DNA of 58,487 bases, filler included, from Dimargaris cristalligena (lineage: Eukaryota), in the NCBI GenBank assembly GCA_003614675.1. It is 2 parts of 2 records of this genome, joined end to end, with 100 filler letters (N's around TTAATTAATTAA, not from the genome) between each part and the next. Parts side by side here need not be neighbours in the genome. Positions count along the whole stretch, not along the records: positions 1 to 29,200 come from ML002488.1; 1 more part is not named here. One strand, given 5' to 3'. Positions 16,375 through 35,550 of this stretch are shown in pieces. Within the stretch, counting starts at the first letter, position 1. Each line of letters begins with the position of its first letter. The position numbers were made by a program, and so were the translations under genes. The notes under the pieces were generated by a model that had not been told where the DNA came from, did no database searches, and saw only the letters and a program-made list of their open reading frames with translations.

Positions 16375-16447
16375 GCCCGGATAGCTCAGCTGGTAGAGCG
16401 TGAGGCTTTTAACCTTAATGTCGAGGGTTCGAGCCCCTCTTCGGGCG
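16375..16447 (+). tRNA. tRNA-Lys (anticodon UUU), intronless
   Basis: Acceptor stem GCCCGGA/TTCGGGC, D arm TAGCTCAGCTGGTAGAGC, anticodon arm TGAGG-CTTTTAA-CCTTA, T arm GAGGGTTCGAGCCCCTC. A Pol III T-run follows at about 16452-16457. Confidence 0.97.
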
Positions 16448-17585: not shown

Positions 17586-18433
17586 TGCAGTGCCATTTAA
17601 TCTGATCCCCCCCTTTCCCTCCTTATACAACACGCATACAATAGCGCACAACTTGCTAGCCAGCGGCAATCAATCAATCAATCAATAGTATGTCCATGGC
17701 ATCTTTTTTTAAAAAAAGCACCAATCGCGGTGGTTGGAAATGGGACCCTGTCTAATTGGACCTATCCACTACTTCTTATATCCCCCATGTACGGTGGCGT
17801 CCTTGGCAGCTGAAAATTCGCCCACTCCAATAATACCTCCTCACTCTCTATATGCTATATGCGCATATAGAGTAGACGTGGTATTATAATAAATAAGTAT
17901 AATAGTAATAATAATTGATGATGGTCAGGCCATTATTATCAACAGCTCTTTCTTTCTCTCTCTGCCTGGTAAAACATCCCGCACCTTTTATGTCTTTTGA
18001 ACCACTCATTTACTCTAGAATAGTCGTGACTTTCCAGTCAGAAGCCCGCTCAGTCAGCCTTTCTTTCTTCATTTCTTCTTTCTCTAATTCTCCGGCCAAA
18101 CCTTTTCTATTCTTTTACTCTCTTTGGTCTTTCTGCTGCCTTCGTTTCTTGGTGACGACTATTCCGCATTCGTTCCTACATAATAGTCCTATAATTGCCC
18201 CGACGATCCACGCATTCTTTCCTGCTACTCTCCAGCCTGCGCAGTCCTTTATTCTTACCCGCTTGCCTATTATATATCTATATCATACATAGCGCTGGCT
18301 CCTCCTCCCCTGGGCCCTGAGACTCGTGCTAACCATAGCCGGTAGAAGAGAAGAGTCCTGCCCCTTTCCTTTTAACCTATACTACAACCGCCCCTCTCTC
18401 GCCTGCCGTAAGTGTGGTACAGACTGTATCCGT

Positions 18434-20838
18434 ATGGCCGCCTCCCCCACAGCTCCCCCCCGCACAAGCCCACCGGCTTCACCCAAAGAGGACTTTGCCA
18501 CCTCCCGTCGCTCCCCCATCCAGGTTTTAACCCTGGCGTCCGAGGGTGTCCCGGCTTCTTCCGCTTCCTCACCCATAGTTTCCGCCAAGTCCCGCATCTC
18601 CGTCATGGACCTATGCCACGCCTCCAATAGCCTGCCTTCCACCCTTTCCACAACTGCCCCTGTCTTCTTAGATACAACTACCCATCACGATGCCGAGGTC
18701 CAGCTGGCCGCCCAGGCCCTAGGCCAACTAGGTGGGTGTGCTACCGTCCTACCTGCCGGCTGTAGCGACGACTTCATGTCCCGCGTCTCTAACTATCCCT
18801 TGGTTAACACGGCCCTTCGTTTCTACCAGACTTCGAAAGCGAACTCGCGCGTGGTCAAATACGGCGCCGAGACTATGGAATACTCCGTTAAGTCTATTTG
18901 CCGGCCGGTCCTTGATCGATTTGAACCCAATTTGGCTGACCTGGACGATTTTGCTTGCAAGCAGTTAGATAAGGTAGGTTCCATACACCCTTCTCGATGT
19001 AATAATTCTTCGCGGGGCACCTTTGTATCAACTGAAACAGCCCGTCGTTCCTGGCTGCTCTTCTGGCCGAGTCCACTTATAGTGTTCCCGACGCCCCTCC
19101 CCCTCCCCTGCCGGCATATTAATAATAGTTGATATTTATATTTATAATTGCATTAAATATCTGCGCTTAGATTGAGCGGCATTACAGGACCAACTCTACC
19201 TCCGAGGTCGTTGCATTGGACCCCGTCCCTATATCACAGGCGGTCTCCACCGCCACGAGGTCTCCCCCGATGGGCCCCGCCAATATCCGAAAGCGCACCA
19301 ACCTCCGGCGGGCCCAGGAGGAAGACGAAGCCGCCCGGTATCACCCACTGAATCACTTCCCGACCACCTCCACAGTAGGAGAAACGTTGATGGACACAGA
19401 TGAACCCCAACAGGCCCTAGTCACTCGGTTCCCCCAAGACCCGGCCCACCGCCACACGGAAGGCGACCACCGGGATAGTAACCCATCGAACCAGCCGCGC
19501 ACCTGGTGGCAGCAAGTACTCGTGGGAGCGGGTACCGGCGCCTTGGTCTTCAGCGAAGATAGCATGCGTCGCATCAAATACTGCTTAGACTGGCTACAGT
19601 ACGCCGCCAACCATATTCAACTACAAATCAATACTCTGCGGGAGGTAATCCTCACTCTCCAGCAAACCCTGATGGGCAACCCCGCCCCAGCTCCTCAAGG
19701 CGAAGAGGACGATCACCCGGGCGCCGTAATGCGCCGAACCATGTCGCCCGTGTTGTCCCGATTAGCCAAGACTAAACGGGAAATTGTCATGACCATGAAG
19801 AAAGTCATTTCAATTATGAGCCAGTATGCCGGGTCGGCCCTCCCTGCCGAGGCCAGGCGTCACGTACGCACCTTAATTATGAGTCTGCCCAATCGGTGGG
19901 CCGTCATTGACCCCCACTCCGCTCCCGGTTCACGGTCCGGCTCTGCTTCACCCGCCTTTTCCGCCTCCCCCAGTTTGTCACCTGCCTTTTCCTCCCACCT
20001 CCACCCGGGTGCTCGGATAAACCCTATTGCCCACTCGGAAGCCAATGCCCGCAAAATCCTGAATTTTGCCACTGAGTCGCAAGTCGTGCTCAATAACGTA
20101 ACGGGTGTCTTCACCGATATTTTTGAAGGGGCCCAGGGCTGGCGCCAGACTTTCCGCGGTCTAGGGTTTAATGTGAGTGCCGAAGAGGGGGGTATGGACA
20201 CTGAATTATCCCATCTTTCATCATCTTCGGGGGTACCGACGACCTCCACTCCGCCAGATAAGCGTAAGTCACCTTCATCGGTCTGTTCCGGATCTTCTCA
20301 GTACGGCACTCCGCTGGCCACCCCGACTTATTCACAGCCGGGTCCCACTAATGGTAATGGGTACCGTCCACCTGGGCACGACGCGGTTAACTTACCCGCC
20401 ATCGCCTCGGTGACCGCTTCTACCTATGCATCGGGGTCGGCGGAAATGGGGCACCGCGAAAGCGACGACGGCGACCATGATATTATGGCCAACAACCACC
20501 CCAAGCGTAACAAGACTTCTGGCTGGTCCAGCAGTACTGGCCTATCTAACAAGCGCCTAAGTCCCCGAGTGTCACATTCATCCCTAACGATGAACACTGG
20601 CTCAATGGCGGGTCCTTGTGCTATGGCCAACGGCAGTCGTAGCCCCGGTGCTTCAACCACCACCACTACTCTAAGCCGCCCAACCCCCCAATGGGCCACG
20701 GACTCTTTCCATTGCGATACTCCCCACCAAAGTTCTACTGGCCTACCGTCGGCTTCCCTAACCAACCCCCACTTACCCACTCTGACCCCTGGCGTTTCTC
20801 GGTCTGCCGATATGCAAACTGATGGGTTGATGCGCTAA
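18434..20838 (+). CDS. OPI1: Opi1-family transcriptional repressor; 2 exons
   Basis: Exon 1 18434-18973 (donor GTAGGT); exon 2 19171-20838 (acceptor CTTAG), phase 0. Opi1-family motifs AAQALGQL, FMSRVSNYPLVNTALRFYQTSKANSRVVKYGAETME, LDDFACKQLDKIE, SEDSMRRIKYCLDWLQYA, KREIVMTMKKVISIMSQYAGSALPAEARRHVRTLIMSLPNRW. Confidence 0.9.
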
Positions 20839-23237
20839 AGGTGGCGAGGTTAAGGGACCTGGCCTTAATCCTTGTCCGTTATCTATACCCTTTTTATATA
20901 CTAAGCCGCAGTTGCCTGATGCTTTTCTTTGAGGTTTTCCCCAAACAAGTCAGTACATACCCTATACACACACATATATACAATCCAAGGGAATCCACCT
21001 GCTTTATTCCTATTTTTGGCAAACTTTTGTACAGCTGACTTGGATTATTGGCATTTTGCTATTCTCACCTTACTTGGTTGCCTCGTCTTCTCTACATACC
21101 AACTATTGCCCCCACCACATACGCATATACCTGTTAATGATGATTAGTTATGTTGATTTTTCTCCCACTCTCGGACACTCCTCTCCCACCTCCTACCTTT
21201 CATCTTTTAATATTTACATATATATATATATTTATGTCCTTATAGCCCACCTGCCCTTCCTTCTCTCTCTCTCTCTTCCTTATGCTTTTCTGTTGATTAA
21301 GCGTATGTATTCTATCTGTGACCTGTTCAGCCTCGGGCGATTGCGATGAGTCTCAAACCGAGAACACCTATTGTTAATCACGGACCTCGTCATCTTATTT
21401 TCCCACAATTTTGGACCCTAGCTATAAACCACCAAGTTCTATCTGTATACATGGTATGGCTGAATACGCCCGGCGCTTATTCGAAGATGAAGGGGGGCGG
21501 GAGTGGGCATATACCCTCCTATACAATGTGTACATGCTCAAGTGCTCCATTGATTATCTGCCATTTGGTTGACCTACAAGAGTGAACCAAGACAGTCACA
21601 ATGATGTCGACCCATCGTTTAATAGAGCAGGTAAATCAGCGATCAACATGCGGGGGAGGGGGAATTCACTACAACGCCCTGCCCAAATCATATTTTCCTA
21701 TACTATGATCCCTTTCGGTGACTATTGGTTCTCAATTGAGTCTACATTACGCCGAAGTAAAAATGGATGAGGAGGAAGGAGGTCACTTTCGTTCATGCGG
21801 CTACTCCGAATCAATTGATTATGCCTGCCCATGACCCATCCCGGAGTCTAGGGTATTTTAGGGCTGTTCTTGTTTTTTTACTGTTTGCACCATAGATTTG
21901 TTTTTCGTATTGATAAGGTAGCAGGCCATTGTCTAAACCTCGTCAAGGTTAAACCTTCTACTAACTGACAGGAATGGCAACTAGGATGCCTCTGTAGGTA
22001 CGTGCGGCAGACTCACTGCGGCTCAGTACCATCTATTATATATTACGCACCACTCTTTCTACATACACTAACCTCTACGGGTTTTATAACCATGGCAATG
22101 GGGCACTGCCGAAAAATAATAATACACAAGGTAATAAGGTGGGCATGAAACACACACACACACGCACACGCACCAGCCACATTCGGGTGAGCGGTAATAG
22201 TATAAATATGTATAGGTGTAGATAATCGTAGTATGCGGGGAATTACGGCCGGCCTCATCCTTCCCATCCTACATCCGGGTCGGTTATTAGGTGAATCATT
22301 CTTGGCTAAATCATTATTTATTCCATGGGTTGTTCAAAGAAGGTAATTTGTATTACTTTATTCTCCACTCCACTCCACTCCCCTTATCTTTCCTTCCCTC
22401 TGCCCCTTCCCTCTCGCACTGTACAGGGTATAAATGACTAAGTCCTGCTGTGCAATGTAAACCAGATTTAATGGGCCCGACTTAACTGGCACTAAATAGA
22501 ATCCCCGCCTATTTGCTTGGGTTGGTTTATTCAATATTATTCACACAAGTGGGTTTAGGGCCAATTGGTGTATGCTTAACGAAGCTATATAGTCGAAAAT
22601 AGCGATGCCCATCCTTTTACTCACTCACTCACCCACTAAATCTAATAGAATTTATTTATTTAAATACGGGCTATGGGAGTTGGTAGAGCAAGGCTTTCGA
22701 TGGTCACCCGTATAACAATGATGCGGATATTCCCCCGGTCTTTGTTACTACATAAACATACCTGTTGGGATAATGGCCAAGACAGACTGTGGATCGTCCC
22801 TTTCGGATACGATGGTTTTATCCCAGGGAGATTATTGGCCCTAGCACAAAACAGGTGGGGCGGGACTGCGCCCAAGTGTCTCTTCGCGATGACCGCCGCC
22901 GGCTCCTCCTCCCCCTTCAACTATTACTATCTTACACTGGCCTTTTAGTGATGGCAGATGGACTGTTCGCCAAGATCTCCCGCCTCCCCGAGACTTTTCC
23001 CGTAGGTATATTTATATTTAAAGCCGGTCGGCCGGTCCGTTAACTGGCATGTACCATTCATTTCATTGCATTTCATCTCTAAACTCTCCCCCACCTTTTC
23101 GCTCCCGTTATATCTTGGATAACACATTTTATACAGAGTAATATATATATATATATATATATAAATTCTATTCGACCCGTTCATTAATTTGGGATCCTTC
23201 CTACACTACACTACGCCCCTACTCCTACGACTTCGCC

Positions 23238-23435
23238 ATGAACCTCGTATTTCGGCACCAGCTCATTATCCTGGTAGTCTTGTTCGTCTGCTTAAGCCAT
23301 GTCATGGTTGTGCATGGTGGAATTATCAGCGGGATTAAGTCCAAATTCACTACCATGAAGACGGATTGGAAAAAAATAAGAGCCGATAGCAATAGACGCC
23401 ATAGTGCAAATATGGACAAGTACGCAAATTACTGA
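23238..23435 (+). CDS. Small secreted peptide precursor (signal peptide + cationic amphipathic helix); C-terminus may be spliced
   Basis: GCCATG start downstream of an (AT)n-ATAAA TATA-like element (23141-23165). Hydrophobic core LIILVVLFVCL with a V-H-G signal-peptidase site. A possible intron 23420-23572 (GTACGC..TTTATAG) would alter the C-terminus. Confidence 0.6.
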   Translation: MNLVFRHQLIILVVLFVCLSHVMVVHGGIISGIKSKFTTMKTDWKKIRADSNRRHSANMDKYANY

Positions 23436-24278
23436 GCCTGATATTACCTTTCGGATTCTATTGACCCATTTTCGCATACACCCGCTCTCTTCGCTTCTTT
23501 TCACCCATGTTGGCTGATTTAGTTGCCCTCCTTCCCATATATCCCCCCTTTTTTTTCACTCGGCCTTTATAGATCATTTAACAACGTAGCCATAGATATC
23601 TCCGCACATTACGGCATATCCCTAGTATCATTTTTCAATAAACTCCGATTAGCAATTGTCTGTGGTGGTCGTTGAACTTGGTCTAGTGTACGCTCCCTCC
23701 ATTCCTACAAATCACCAATTCAAACAAGGAGTACTCCTTCATGATACCGGCGAGGGCCGTCTGAATGTAACCGGCTCTCTTTAAGTCGCCACCTCCTAAA
23801 GCACGAGTCAAACTGAACCCATATATCACAGCTCAGTGTATGCTACTGCGCCACCGCCCCTCTCTCACCAGGCATAGTAGCTCCAACTCTAGGCCCAATT
23901 CACTTGTAAGCTGACTTTGGGCCTCGCTGGATTCCTCCTACCCTGGTCTACATTTCGCCTCCCTTCTTCTCCAAGACTAATTTGTTCTCATATATATATA
24001 TATATAAATTCTCTATTGACGCGATTGCTCTGGGCTTACCCAATGCCCGACCGATCAGAAAACACTCCTACGTAATATCTACACCGTGGTTGAGTCCCAT
24101 GGACGGTCCCAAATAGTTGCTTTTTCTGGAGTCTAGTTCACTACCTTTTTACAATTCCCTTTTTTTTTAAAAAAAAATAAATAGCTACTCTCATTGCATA
24201 ATTTTCCCCTTTATTAAGACCGGTTGCTGCCAGTATCCTCCCGCTCCACCCGACGCCTCTACAACCCTCACCCCAGCC

Positions 24279-26023
24279 ATGGCCACCCATTCCCATACCC
24301 TGCTCTGCCGCATGAAGCGGGAGTGGGAGATACTGACCCGGAATCTCCCGGCTGGTATTATATGCCACCCTGAAGGGGATTCACTAGTGCGTTGGAAAGC
24401 CCTGATTAAAGGCCCTCGCGATACCCCTTACGAAGGCGGCCGGTTTGAACTCCGCGTCAGTATACCCGACAGGTAAGCAAATAACAACGCCTGGCTCCTT
24501 CAAGACAAACCGGCGAGCCATGTGTTGTCTTAGCCTGTGGGCGCTTTAATCTATTATACAGAGGGTTGTTGCCCTGAATGGGGTGCCGTATCATCTAGTT
24601 TTGTAGTGTAGAGTAGTAGGGACGATCTTTTCCGTGGTCCAGTTAGTTATATACCCGGCCTTCGCATTGATATCTGATATATCTCATGTGGACGGAACAT
24701 GCATGCTTCGTTATCCCCCGCGATCACAGGTATCCGTATGTGCCCCCACAAATCCAATTCGTGACCTCAGTCTACCATCCCAACATCGACCGGGAAGGCC
24801 GCATCTGTCTCGACCTTCTTAAAATGCCCCCCAAGGTAAGCACAGCCGATCCCTGACCATAGTGATTGGTCACCAGCAATTGAATACATGATTGCGAATG
24901 CTCAAGAGGTAGAGCTTTACCCGTACATATCCCTCGACCACTCATCACTATTATGAATCATATCCCTCTATTCGTGAATCGCCATGTAGGGAGGCTGGAA
25001 GCCGGCATTAAATGTATCAACTGTCTTGACCTCCCTCTACCTGCTTCTGTCCGAGCCAAATCCCAACGATCCACTTCTGGCCGATGTGGTAAGTAACCAT
25101 GTATTCTTTCGCATTTTAGCTGGGGTTCAGTACAATGAGATGTGGCGGACTAGTTTTTGTCTCGATTTATAGAATTCTTTATATCAGCCATTCGCCACAG
25201 TGTACCATCTTGGTGTCCCATAATCTGGATGGCTAACCCGGGAGCGACAAATCAAACTGCTTTACTTTATATATGACATTGCTTACCGGTGGATTTTTAT
25301 GACTAGGCGGCTGAATTTCGGGAAAACCGGCCACTGTTTAATGAAAAGGCGCGAAGATGGACTTCGCAATACGCCACTATCCAGGATGATGAAGAATCGA
25401 CAGCCCCAGCTTCTGATGAAGTGGGCATGAAAGAAAATCTAGAGGCCCCGACCGCTGCAGTCCCACCACTAATCCCTGCGGACCCGCAATTGCCTGCCCA
25501 AGTTGCTAAAGACCGAAAGCACTCGAACCTCAAGCTTAAGCGTTCGAAAAATAATACGGCGTCCTCTATGCCTTCAGCCAATAGCCCGGCGAAGAAGGGT
25601 CAGCCGGTACCTCAAGCTGCTACGCCGATGGCCACTCCCGCCAAACGGAAATCTAAAGCCTGGAAAGTCACCGCTGTGGACCCCCCTAAATCCCTTAGGA
25701 AACCCAAAAAAGCATCACCAGCTCCCTTGAAAACCACAGAAATAGTAATTCCAGCCACGTCTTCCCCCAGCCCACCCACAGCGGAACAACCCAAACCTCC
25801 AGGGCTACCGTTGCCACCTCCCACTATTTCTCCAATGCCCCCGACTTCGGAGGGACCACTTGGTACTCCAGTTCCCAAGCCCATGGTTCGCTCATACAGC
25901 TATGAGAATTTAAAAGAAGAATTTGGTGATATTCCCGACGTTTTACCCGCAACCGTTCGAGGTAAGCGCCATATTTTTAAGCGAGGCTCCTACGACCAAT
26001 CCAAGAAACCACGTCCTGATTAA
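24279..26023 (+). CDS. UBE2T: Ubiquitin-conjugating enzyme E2 T-like (UBE2T/FANCT) with long Pro/Lys-rich C-terminal tail; 4 exons
   Basis: Exons 24279-24472, 24730-24835, 24990-25088, 25307-26023 join in frame. E2 core [47 protein letters not shown]; the LK.PPKG.W insertion after the catalytic Cys is characteristic of UBE2T. Confidence 0.88.
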
Positions 26024-29200: not shown

Positions 29201-29300
29201 NNNNNNNNNNNNNNNNNNNNNNNNNNNNNNNNNNNNNNNNNNNNTTAATTAATTAANNNNNNNNNNNNNNNNNNNNNNNNNNNNNNNNNNNNNNNNNNNN
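29201..29300. other. Artificial scaffold/contig linker (N44 + TTAATTAATTAA + N44)
   Basis: Exactly 100 bp and symmetric; the central 12-mer places stops in all six frames. Both flanking ORFs run open into it. Confidence 0.95.
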
Positions 29301-34525: not shown

Positions 34526-35550
34526 ATGGTCGTCAATAATGTAAGTAGCCCAAGTCCCAGTGGCCAAGTGCGGCATGGCGCGACCCGGTTCTAGTTCCAG
34601 GAGAAAAGCAAGGAATGGGTACAGTTGTCCTTGAAGCGCATTCTCTGGGTCCACCGCATATACCACCAACTTCCACCCCACCCCAACCGCTTTCCTAACC
34701 CCTTTCCGGCCGACCGTATGCTTATTGATTTTCTATTTGATTTTTCTACTCCAATGACCGCCCCTAAATTATATCCCCTTAGGGTGCGCTGAGCGCTTAC
34801 ACACGGGACCTGACCCTTGACTTTCCGTGGATCGAAACCATGGATATCGTCGCCAAAGTCGACCACAGTGGACTCGACCCCGAGGACGAACTTAAACGCG
34901 AACTAGCCTTTTACAGCCAGGCCCTCGAATGCGCCAAATTGGGACGGTCCCGATTCCAAGAGGCCGGCGCCCCGTTCAACCGTCCGGACGACTATTTCGC
35001 CGAAATGGTCAAGTCGGACGACCAGATGCTGCGTATCCGTAAGCGTCTGTTGGAGCAAACCAAGACCATTGCCGCCTCCGAAGAGGCCCGCCGACAGCGC
35101 GACCTCAAGAAATACGGTGGCAAGATCCAGGCCGAAAAACTGCTGGACCGCCAGAAGCGCAAGTCGGAGGCCCTGGATAAGATCAAGGCCCTTAAGCGGA
35201 AGCGGGGCGATGTCTCGGGCCATCCCGGTACGGAGGGGGCCGACGACATGGTCGACTACGACGATCAGTTTGATATTGCCCTTAGCGATAACGAGGACGG
35301 CGAGAGCCGCCCGGCTGCCAAGAAGGGCACTAAGGTCCGGGGTGGCAAGGCGAGTGGTTCTAGAAAAATGCCCCGGTCCAGTCGGGACGCTAAATACGGC
35401 TTCGGGGGTAAACGGCGGCACGGCAAGTCCAACACCCGGGAAAGTCTGGGTGACCTCGAGGGCAATAAACCCGGTCGCCCGGGTGCGGGTGGTAAGGGCA
35501 AAAAATCCAAACGGCCCGGCAAAATGACCCGTCGGCACTACAAGAAATAG
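34526..35550 (+). CDS. EBP2: rRNA-processing protein Ebp2; 2 exons
   Basis: Exon 1 34526-34540 (MVVNN, donor GTAAGT); exon 2 from 34783 in frame. Motifs EDELKRELAFYSQAL, PFNRPDDYFAEMVKSDDQM, RRQRDLKKYGGKIQ, RDAKYGFGGKRR, KRPGK. Confidence 0.95.

What the first reader, a model, noticed from the sequence alone, without database searches (positions are those of the whole stretch)
23238..23435. Micro-gene encoding a secreted cationic amphipathic peptide ending at a dibasic site (cytolysin/antimicrobial-like)
Seen: a 27-aa signal peptide ending VHG, then GIISGIKSKFTTMKTDWKKIRADSN-RR. Hydrophobic residues at mature positions 2, 3, 6, 10, 13, 17, 20 give i+3/i+4 periodicity. Residues 1-21 carry 6 K/R against 1 D. 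The mature part has no Cys. It has its own TATA-like element and a GCCATG start. Established: Gly-initial cationic amphipathic helices typify membrane-active peptides, and dibasic Kex2 processing releases the fungal peptide toxin candidalysin. Inference: an undescribed membrane-active effector or antimicrobial peptide of about 25 aa, short enough to be missed by annotation.
Basis: partly seen in the sequence, partly recalled or inferred. Interest (0 to 1): 0.7.

Follow-up and report, generated by a model that had tools for sequence, protein, structure and literature searches.

The report
Unannotated 65-codon helical peptide ORF
A 65-codon reading frame between two ordinary genes of a mould-parasitic fungus looks, on several independent sequence tests, like a real but unannotated gene for a small secretory or membrane peptide, though nothing yet shows that it is expressed or toxic.

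Summary
It lies in a 3.4-kb gap between an Opi1-like gene and a ubiquitin-conjugating-enzyme (UBC) gene of a Dimargaritales fungus.

ORF length and the RR site are at chance level. Three features are not:
- a signal-peptide-like N-terminus;
- a cationic helix whose seven hydrophobic residues all fall within a 100-degree arc;
- a gene-type start, with GCC before the first ATG and an ATG-free, pyrimidine-rich leader. Only 8 of 1,848 ATGs in the window share this signature, and three of them are independently established gene starts, a fourth probably.

Against this, codon usage is not gene-like. No homologue or paralogue was found, although the nearest sequenced relatives are too distant for that to count for much. 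Expression and synteny could not be tested.

My estimate is about 0.55 that this is a real lineage-restricted micro-gene and about 0.4 that it is a chance ORF. If it is real, the product enters the ER, and its amphipathic helix binds a membrane surface. Whether it is secreted or stays anchored is open. The candidalysin-like reading, a 25-mer released by Kex2, is unsupported (about 0.06).

The parts
23141..23169 (+). (TA)11A followed by AATTCT: a TATA-like element 68 nt before the ATG
   Evidence: The 15-mer ATATATATAAATTCT occurs only here and at 23998-24012, 266 nt before the UBC ATG. It appeared in 0 of 100 shuffles. However, 14 TA runs of at least 10 nt lie in the window, so the run itself is common.
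23170..23237 (+). Putative 5' leader: ATG-free, pyrimidine-rich, ending in GCC before the ATG
   Evidence: There is no ATG on the + strand from 23101 to 23237. Positions -40 to -1 are 72% pyrimidine, the top 2.8% of 1,851 ATGs. RCC plus at least 70% pyrimidine holds for 8 of 1,848 ATGs. These include the UBC, PMI and ubiquitin-S27a starts and the probable Ebp2 start.
23238..23435 (+). 65-codon ORF plus TGA stop
   Evidence: No Pfam family matches. AlphaFold2 on the single sequence gives one helix over residues 3-64, mean pLDDT 88.9.
23238..23318 (+). Codons 1-27: an n-region with R6, then a hydrophobic core from L9. Either a signal peptide or a signal anchor.
   Evidence: The Kyte-Doolittle 19-residue mean peaks at 2.58. 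T occupies 67% of second codon positions. Possible (-3,-1) cleavage sites follow residues 20, 27, 31, 32 and 35.
23319..23393 (+). Codons 28-52: cationic amphipathic helix, net charge +4
   Evidence: The seven hydrophobic residues lie in a 100-degree arc. Resultant 0.81, p = 0.00025. Fauchere-Pliska moment 0.39-0.46, p = 0.03-0.04.
23394..23399 (+). RR codons (residues 53-54), the proposed kexin site
   Evidence: Read directly from the sequence. A KR or RR pair appears in 52% of shuffled tails, so the site carries no weight.
23420..23572 (+). Hypothetical 153-nt intron (GTACGC ... polypyrimidine tract, TATAG)
   Evidence: Its use would replace the last four residues by 34 others. That second exon has a codon score of -0.43, which is non-coding-like. 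The three UBC introns next door, read by eye, use GTAAGC, GTAAGC and GTAAGT. The intron is not needed for an intact ORF.
23637..23642 (+). AATAAA, a possible polyadenylation signal 202 nt after the stop
   Evidence: It is the only AATAAA between 23401 and 24000. Weak evidence on its own.

Best explanation
This is a real, unannotated, lineage-restricted micro-gene.

Proposed mechanism (all steps inferred unless marked):
- A TATA-like (TA)n element drives a short mRNA.
- A scanning ribosome starts at the mRNA's first ATG (23238), which sits in this genome's typical RCC-ATG, pyrimidine-rich context. The context is shown; its use is inferred.
- The 65-residue product is all-helical.
- Its N-terminal hydrophobic helix takes it into the ER membrane.
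- The following cationic helix (residues about 28-48) has a narrow hydrophobic face flanked by lysines and lies on a membrane surface.

Two fates remain open:
(a) Signal peptidase cuts after residue 20 or 27. A 38-45-residue peptide of net charge +6 is secreted, and in a haustorial mycoparasite it could act on host membranes. About 0.28 overall.
(b) The helix stays as an N-out/C-in anchor, giving a small membrane protein with a juxtamembrane amphipathic helix. About 0.22 overall.

Only the sequence features are shown. Transcription, translation, targeting, cleavage and activity are all inferred.
For: Start context:
- The start has GCC at -3 to -1 and 72% pyrimidine at -40 to -1.
- 8 of 1,848 ATGs in the window combine RCC with at least 70% pyrimidine; 3.5 would be expected if the two traits were independent.
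- Three of the 8 are independently established starts (UBC 24279, PMI 41619, ubiquitin-S27a 49329).
- A fourth (34526) is followed after 5 codons by GTAAGT and fits the Ebp2 gene.
- Other probable starts are also pyrimidine-rich: Ssn6 0.82, PIG-V 0.68.
- 23238 is the first ATG downstream of the TATA-like element.
- That element shares its 15-mer with the UBC upstream region.

Protein-level features:
- Signal-like N-terminus: 2 of 84 real-sequence ORFs and 9 of 1,919 simulated ORFs pass.
- Amphipathic arc: p = 0.00025 by shuffling; 3-28 of 3,788 simulated ORFs reach it; no simulated ORF had both traits (0 of 1,919).

Composition:
- GC3 is 0.57 against 0.40 and 0.31 at codon positions 1 and 2.
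- The GC3 excess ranks 2nd of 82 unmasked ORFs. Others near the top are a known exon (UBC exon 2) and 50677-50958(-), which also tops the codon score and may be one.

Structure:
- AlphaFold2 gives one helix over residues 3-64 at pLDDT 88.9.
Against: Codon usage:
- The whole-codon log-odds score is -0.10.
- That lies inside the range of 103 unmasked ORFs (mean -0.19, sd 0.20; 66th percentile).
- It lies below all 135 65-codon chunks of the window's Pfam-supported genes (0 of 135 as low). The two UBC exons, not used in training, score +0.17 and +0.16.
- Synonymous-only score is -0.07. About 4% of the 135 real chunks are as low, and 80% of the 103 unmasked ORFs are lower.

No relatives:
- phmmer against 1.84 billion representatives: 0 hits at E <= 0.001.
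- Word searches over 35-2000 aa: none.
- Metagenome contigs: none.
- No paralogue in the window: best non-self tblastn E = 0.32.

Chance origin is plausible:
- The + strand of the gap is T- and C-rich (T 0.31, C 0.26), and such DNA readily encodes hydrophobic helices.
- The antisense ORF 23295-23480 also passes my signal-peptide heuristic and also folds as a confident helix over residues 2-35.

Limits of my tests:
- My heuristics and thresholds were set after seeing the candidate, so the chance rates are optimistic.
- At least 2 of the 8 signature ATGs (44423, 11094) look like false positives.
Confidence: 0.5

Rival explanations
1. It is a chance ORF in intergenic DNA and no gene at all. On this view the T/C-rich + strand of the Opi1-UBC gap happens to give an open frame. 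T-rich second codon positions mimic a signal peptide. An A-rich continuation mimics a lysine-rich helix. The (TA)n run is one of many microsatellites.
For: - ORF length is at chance (94% of simulations).
- Whole-codon score is indistinguishable from non-coding ORFs and below 135 of 135 real chunks.
- Synonymous score is at about the 4th percentile of real chunks.
- No homologue was found anywhere and no paralogue in the window.
- 14 TA runs lie in the window.
- The antisense ORF is also signal-like and helix-forming.
- About 3.5 of the 8 start-signature ATGs are expected by chance.
- Published work reports that T-rich intergenic DNA of yeasts is enriched in potential to encode transmembrane segments (PMC7005711 and PMC10063215; titles and starts of abstracts in a search listing only).
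- Loosely defined, the signal-plus-amphipathic combination is expected roughly 0.1-2 times per 30-Mb genome. This is my extrapolation.
Against: - The coincidence of four separately rare traits: RCC plus pyrimidine-rich leader, first ATG after a TATA-like element, signal-like N-terminus, and an amphipathic arc at p = 0.00025.
- GC3 excess ranks 2nd of 82.
- The lack of homologues has little power. Even the housekeeping PMI is only 62% identical to its nearest named relative (Tieghemiomyces), and 51-53% to Dispira spp. and Dimargaris xerosporica.
Confidence: 0.4
2. Signal peptidase cuts after VHG (residue 27). A kexin cuts after RR (residue 54) and a carboxypeptidase trims the arginines. The result is a secreted 25-residue Gly-initial cytolytic or antimicrobial peptide, as with candidalysin.
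For: - A (-3,-1)-compatible site lies after residue 27, and RR lies at 53-54.
- Residues 28-52 are cationic (+4) and amphipathic.
- Kexin plus Kex1 processing yields candidalysin in Candida (PMC5784256, abstract and passages).
Against: - RR or KR is expected in 52% of shuffled tails.
- Four other cleavage sites fit equally well.
- Candidalysin comes from a 271-aa precursor with seven KR sites; here there is one 65-aa ORF with no KR.
- No similarity to Ece1 or any lytic peptide: one search gave 0 hits, and PDB phmmer at E <= 10 returned only two ferric-reductase chains at E = 1.2.
- Mean hydrophobicity is low and the hydrophobic face is narrow.
Confidence: 0.06
3. The ORF is only the first exon of a longer product. 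Splicing of 23420-23572 would give a 94-residue protein with a different C-terminus.
For: - GT...AG bounds with a long pyrimidine tract before TATAG and a CTGAT branch-like site.
- The reading frame stays open for 34 more codons.
- The length of 153 nt equals that of UBC intron 2.
Against: - The donor GTACGC differs from the three neighbouring donors GTAAGY.
- The second exon scores -0.43 on codon usage.
- No annotated protein of 35-2000 aa shares words with the first exon.
- The ORF has its own stop 13 nt past the putative donor.
Confidence: 0.08

Closest known systems
Candidalysin / Ece1p of Candida albicans (PMC5784256; abstract and passages read)
   Same: A fungal, ribosomally made, Cys-free helical peptide behind a signal peptide. 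A dibasic site lies at the proposed C-terminus.
   Different: Ece1p is a 271-aa precursor with seven KR sites, and the toxin is an internal, very hydrophobic 31-mer. Here there is a single 65-aa ORF with one RR, no KR and a lysine-rich, weakly hydrophobic helix. No sequence similarity was found.
Linear cationic amphipathic host-defence peptides of animals (cecropin, magainin, melittin types; recalled, not from a call)
   Same: A signal sequence followed by a 20-40-residue Cys-free cationic amphipathic helix. Net charge is +4 to +6 and the Fauchere-Pliska moment is about 0.46.
   Different: There is no Pfam match and no PDB peptide match. No acidic propiece is present. The source is a fungus, where such gene-encoded peptides are, to my recollection, rare.
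De novo or proto-gene membrane ORFs arising from thymine-rich intergenic DNA (PMC7005711, PMC10063215; titles and starts of abstracts in a search listing only)
   Same: An orphan ORF in a T-rich intergenic strand, with a predicted transmembrane-type helix and codon usage close to non-coding.
   Different: Those were defined in Saccharomycotina with translation and fitness data. Here there are no expression data. The start context and amphipathic segment are more gene-like than expected for a raw intergenic ORF.
Yeast Pmp1/Pmp2 plasma-membrane proteolipids (recalled, not from a call)
   Same: They match fate (b): a tiny single-pass protein with a cationic juxtamembrane tail on the cytosolic face.
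   Different: No homology. This protein is longer (65 aa), and its topology is only inferred from flank charges.
Ustilago maydis Rep1 repellents, small amphipathic peptides (seen only as a reference title in PMC5784256; that kexin releases them from the Rep1 precursor is recalled)
   Same: Fungal secreted amphipathic peptides released at dibasic sites.
   Different: The repeat-precursor architecture is absent here.

Membership tests
Protein-coding gene (generic) | Translation-start context typical of the genome | tested here: met
   GCC-ATG with 72% pyrimidine at -40 to -1. It is one of 8 of 1,848 ATGs with this signature, 3 of which are established gene starts and a fourth probable.
Protein-coding gene (generic) | Codon usage like the genome's genes | tested here: inconclusive
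   The whole-codon score is below 135 of 135 real chunks. The synonymous score lies between the two distributions. GC3 excess ranks 2nd of 82.
Protein-coding gene (generic) | Conservation of the frame in relatives | not testable with these tools
   No eukaryotic genome DNA is held. Protein searches gave nothing. The nearest named relatives are only 51-62% identical in PMI.
Protein-coding gene (generic) | Transcript and translation product | not testable with these tools
Candidalysin/Ece1-type toxins | Polyprotein precursor with several KR-bounded peptides | tested here: not met
   A single 65-aa ORF with one RR, one KK and no KR. Compare PMC5784256.
Candidalysin/Ece1-type toxins | Sequence relationship to Ece1 | tested here: not met
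   0 hits at E <= 0.001 among 1.84 billion representatives.
Linear cationic alpha-helical antimicrobial peptides | Cys-free cationic amphipathic helix of about 12-40 residues | tested here: met
   Residues 28-48: net charge +5, hydrophobic arc of 100 degrees, p = 0.00025, moment 0.46. Predicted helical.
Linear cationic alpha-helical antimicrobial peptides | Cleaved signal peptide and secretion | tested here: inconclusive
   Only a crude heuristic passes. Five candidate sites exist, the hydrophobic stretch is long, and flank charges of +1 and +5 favour an N-out anchor. SignalP or DeepTMHMM were not available.
Linear cationic alpha-helical antimicrobial peptides | Membership of a described peptide family (Pfam or PDB) | tested here: not met
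   No Pfam family even at E <= 10. PDB phmmer gave only chance-level ferric-reductase hits.
Linear cationic alpha-helical antimicrobial peptides | Membrane-permeabilising or antimicrobial activity | not testable with these tools
   This needs a synthetic peptide and assays.
De novo proto-gene from T-rich intergenic DNA | Orphan ORF with a transmembrane-type helix encoded by T-rich sequence | tested here: met
   No homologue. T occupies 67% of second codon positions in codons 1-27, and the + strand is 31% T.

The most novel reading that the evidence does not exclude
A zoopagomycete mycoparasite makes a gene-encoded, linear, Cys-free cationic amphipathic peptide from a stand-alone 65-codon gene. 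It secretes the peptide at the haustorial interface to permeabilise the membranes of its Mucorales host. To my recollection this would be the first peptide toxin of this kind outside Dikarya, and it would have evolved de novo from T-rich intergenic DNA.
Probability: 0.1. Interest if true: 0.7.

Novelty: new member of a known kind. Interest (0 to 1): 0.35.

Why it matters
If the gene is real, it would be an orphan micro-gene that standard annotation missed in a poorly studied, early-diverging mycoparasite. Its product is short enough to synthesise and test directly.

It could bear on how haustorial mycoparasites attack host membranes. It could also serve as a clean example of a secretory or membrane micro-protein born from T-rich intergenic DNA.

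If it is a chance ORF, it is a useful caution: T-rich fungal intergenic DNA can mimic a signal peptide followed by an amphipathic helix.

The start-site signature found here (RCC-ATG after a pyrimidine-rich, ATG-free leader) may help re-annotate short first exons and small genes in this genome.

Tried and rejected
- Public sequencing runs for 23100-23750, kind rna: no RNA holder listed, so no reads could be laid.
- Whole genome of the window: not held. Genome-wide paralogue and synteny searches were therefore impossible.
- Earlier-finding look-ups by place, by sequence, by relatives and by a first set of words: nothing for this locus. The genome-wide look-up supplied only the organism's name and a note on long ATG-free leaders. 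A second word search listed other genomes only.
- Metagenome contigs searched with the peptide and with the Opi1 C-terminal part, to look for synteny: no relative.
- ESM Atlas: no usable hit. Recognition was 2208, below the 2300 that most known-family proteins reach. The tool itself says this does not show whether a gene is real.
- Rfam on 20500-24500: one sub-threshold snoRNA-type match at 23807-23866(-), 19 bits against a gathering score of 38. Rejected.
- Pfam on all 62 stop-to-stop frames of at least 35 aa in 20839-24278, to look for pseudogene relics: three sub-threshold matches (E = 0.016, 0.15, 3.9) and none in the candidate.
- PDB phmmer: residues 29-57 align to the C-terminal dehydrogenase region of a NOX5-type ferric reductase (8cak, 5o0x) at E = 1.2. 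This is chance level, has no Pfam support, and was rejected as a gene-relic reading.
- AlphaFold2 as a test of whether the gene is real: rejected. The antisense chance ORF also gives a confident helix over residues 2-35.
- Eisenberg-scale hydrophobic moment first suggested no amphipathicity (p = 0.18-0.25). I kept this result in the report, but it is outweighed by the positional test.
- The ORF as a long leader or upstream ORF of the UBC gene: rejected. Six further ATGs lie between the ORF's stop and 24279 (23507, 23741, 23765, 23840, 24043, 24099), and the UBC gene has its own copy of the TA-motif.
- Literature searches for a Dimargaris transcriptome or secretome found no expression data for this species in the passages read.

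Full report
WHAT IS THERE

The window is fungal nuclear DNA. Pfam places an Opi1-like gene at 18293-20838 (+) and a ubiquitin-conjugating-enzyme (UBC) gene starting at 24279 (+). Read by eye, the UBC gene has three introns with GTAAGY donors.

Earlier notes of this scan name the organism Dimargaris cristalligena. I checked this only indirectly. The window's phosphomannose isomerase (PMI) has its nearest named relatives in Dimargaritales: Tieghemiomyces 62%, Dispira 53% and 51%, Dimargaris xerosporica 51% identity.

The finding lies in the 3.4-kb gap between the Opi1-like and UBC genes.
- residues 1-27 ending in VHG;
- the 25-mer followed by RR;
- 6 K/R against 1 D in mature positions 1-21;
- no Cys in the mature part;
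- a TA-run upstream and GCC before the ATG;
- GT at 23420 and AG at 23572.

WHAT IS AT CHANCE LEVEL

- ORF length means nothing. 94% of 2,000 Markov copies of the gap contain an ATG ORF of at least 65 aa, and the unmasked 35 kb of the window holds 39 such ORFs.
- The dibasic site means nothing. With 9 basic residues in a 38-residue tail, KR or RR appears in 52% of shuffles and some dibasic pair in 91%. There is also a KK at residues 45-46.
- TA runs of at least 10 nt occur 14 times in the window.

WHAT EXCEEDS CHANCE

(i) Signal-like N-terminus. I used a crude heuristic of my own: a basic n-region, a 10-residue uncharged core with mean Kyte-Doolittle value of at least 2.5, and a (-3,-1) site. 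It passes 2 of 84 unmasked ORFs of at least 50 aa. These are the candidate and, tellingly, its own antisense ORF. It passes 9 of 1,919 ORFs in 3 Mb of second-order Markov sequence.

(ii) Helical periodicity. The seven strongly hydrophobic residues of the proposed mature peptide fall between 100 and 200 degrees on a helical wheel. The resultant is 0.81, shuffle p = 0.00025. Of 3,788 simulated ORFs, 28 reach the candidate's value under loose side conditions, 13 when at least 4 K/R are required, and 3 under strict conditions.

The graded moment is less striking because the lysines flank the hydrophobic face and Ser, Thr and Gly fill the polar face:
- Fauchere-Pliska scale: 0.46, p = 0.03;
- Eisenberg scale: 0.35, p = 0.18.

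(iii) Start context. I noticed that the candidate and the UBC gene share a C/T-rich leader ending in GCC-ATG. I then checked other genes.
- PMI (ACC-ATG) and ubiquitin-S27a (ACC-ATG) show the same pattern.
- Of 1,848 ATGs on both strands, 87 have RCC before them and 74 have at least 70% pyrimidine at -40 to -1.
- Eight have both traits, against 3.5 expected if the traits were independent.
- The eight are the three established starts; 34526, where 5 codons are followed by GTAAGT, probably the true Ebp2 start; 52989(-), which is plausible; 44423 and 11094(-), which are doubtful; and the candidate.
- 23238 is also the first ATG after the TA element.
- The 15-mer joining the TA run to AAATTCT occurs only before this ORF and before the UBC gene.

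(iv) GC3. GC is 0.57 at third positions against 0.40 and 0.31 at first and second positions. The GC3 excess ranks 2nd of 82 unmasked ORFs. The low GC at positions 1 and 2 partly restates the amino-acid composition.

WHAT SPEAKS AGAINST A GENE

Codon usage:
- A codon log-odds model was trained on 4,960 codons of Pfam-supported genes of the window.
- The candidate scores -0.10. That is inside the spread of 103 unmasked ORFs (mean -0.19) and below all 135 real 65-codon chunks (mean 0.34).
- The untrained UBC exons score 0.17 and 0.16, a working positive control.
- This score mixes in amino-acid composition. On synonymous choice alone the candidate (-0.07) lies between the real chunks (0.20, sd 0.17; about 4% as low) and the unmasked ORFs (-0.21, sd 0.17; 80% lower).

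No relative was found:
- two word-index searches covering 35-2000 aa;
- phmmer over 1.84 billion representatives;
- metagenome contigs;
- the window itself;
- Pfam and PDB.

The exact sequence is not in the 15-billion-protein collection, whereas the window's PMI is. So the ORF is indeed unannotated. This absence has little power, given relatives only 51-62% identical in a housekeeping enzyme.

AlphaFold2 predicts one helix over residues 3-64 (pLDDT 88.9). The antisense control ORF also gives a confident helix over residues 2-35. The model therefore shows helical propensity only.

WEIGHING

Loosely defined, the signal-plus-amphipathic combination should arise by chance about 0.1-2 times in a 30-Mb genome. 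This is my extrapolation. On its own it is therefore no proof.

The gene-type start context is largely independent of the protein-level traits and shifts the balance towards a real gene. The poor codon usage shifts it back somewhat, and it also fits a young gene. My thresholds were chosen after seeing the candidate.

I put a real gene at about 0.55 and a chance ORF at about 0.4.

MECHANISM IF REAL (INFERRED)

The hydrophobic N-terminus is the only targeting feature and points to the ER. Two fates cannot be separated here.
- Cleavage. Sites after residue 20 or 27 are the most signal-like of the five (-3,-1) sites. Cleavage would release a 38-45-residue peptide of net charge +6.
- Anchoring. The core is long, 17-25 uncharged residues. 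The flank charges are +1 on the N side and +5 on the C side. By the positive-inside rule (established knowledge) these favour an uncleaved anchor with the N-terminus outside and the C-terminus in the cytosol. The amphipathic helix would then lie on the cytosolic face.

In either case the lysine-flanked narrow hydrophobic face suits binding at a membrane interface. The proposed intron is optional and poorly supported.

COMPARISON WITH KNOWN SYSTEMS

- The ORF works, at most, like linear cationic amphipathic peptides. It is not a member of any described family.
- It does not share candidalysin's architecture, a 271-aa precursor with seven KR sites (PMC5784256, abstract and passages).
- It resembles the proto-gene membrane ORFs described from T-rich intergenic DNA of yeasts (PMC7005711, PMC10063215; search listing only).

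VERDICT

This is a plausible but unproven orphan micro-gene. The specific toxin and Kex2 story is speculative.

Noticed in passing
window 23155-23169 and 23998-24012 (+): The same 15-mer (end of a TA run plus AAATTCT) precedes both the micro-ORF (68 nt before its ATG) and the UBC gene (266 nt before its ATG). It occurs nowhere else in the window and in none of 100 shuffles. It may be a shared core-promoter element.
   Followed up: partly
window, all ATGs; e.g. 24279(+), 41619(-), 49329(+), 34526(+): Gene starts in this genome carry RCC-ATG after a pyrimidine-rich leader. Only 8 of 1,848 ATGs combine both traits. This could help find short first exons and small genes.
   Followed up: partly
window 34526-34540 (+): An ATG followed by four codons and a perfect GTAAGT donor lies about 250 nt upstream of the Ebp2 reading frame (34783-35547). 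It is probably a 5-codon first exon of that gene.
   Followed up: partly
window 52858-52989 (-): A 44-codon ORF with the gene-type start signature and a balanced, protein-like composition. It may be the first exon of an unexamined gene.
   Followed up: no
window 23295-23480 (-): A 61-codon ORF antisense to the candidate also passes the signal-peptide heuristic and folds as a confident N-terminal helix. It shows how readily this AT-rich stretch mimics such features.
   Followed up: yes
window 29201-29244 and 29257-29300: Two 44-base runs of N (masked or withheld sequence) lie at the 3' end of the Ssn6/Cyc8-like TPR gene and next to the adjoining ORF.
   Followed up: no
window 16375-16447 (+): tRNA-Lys(UUU) gene, the only tRNA in the window.
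   Followed up: no
window 50677-50958 (-): A 93-codon unmasked ORF with the highest codon score and the highest GC3 excess among ORFs of 50-110 aa in the unmasked sequence. It is likely an exon of a gene I did not identify.
   Followed up: no
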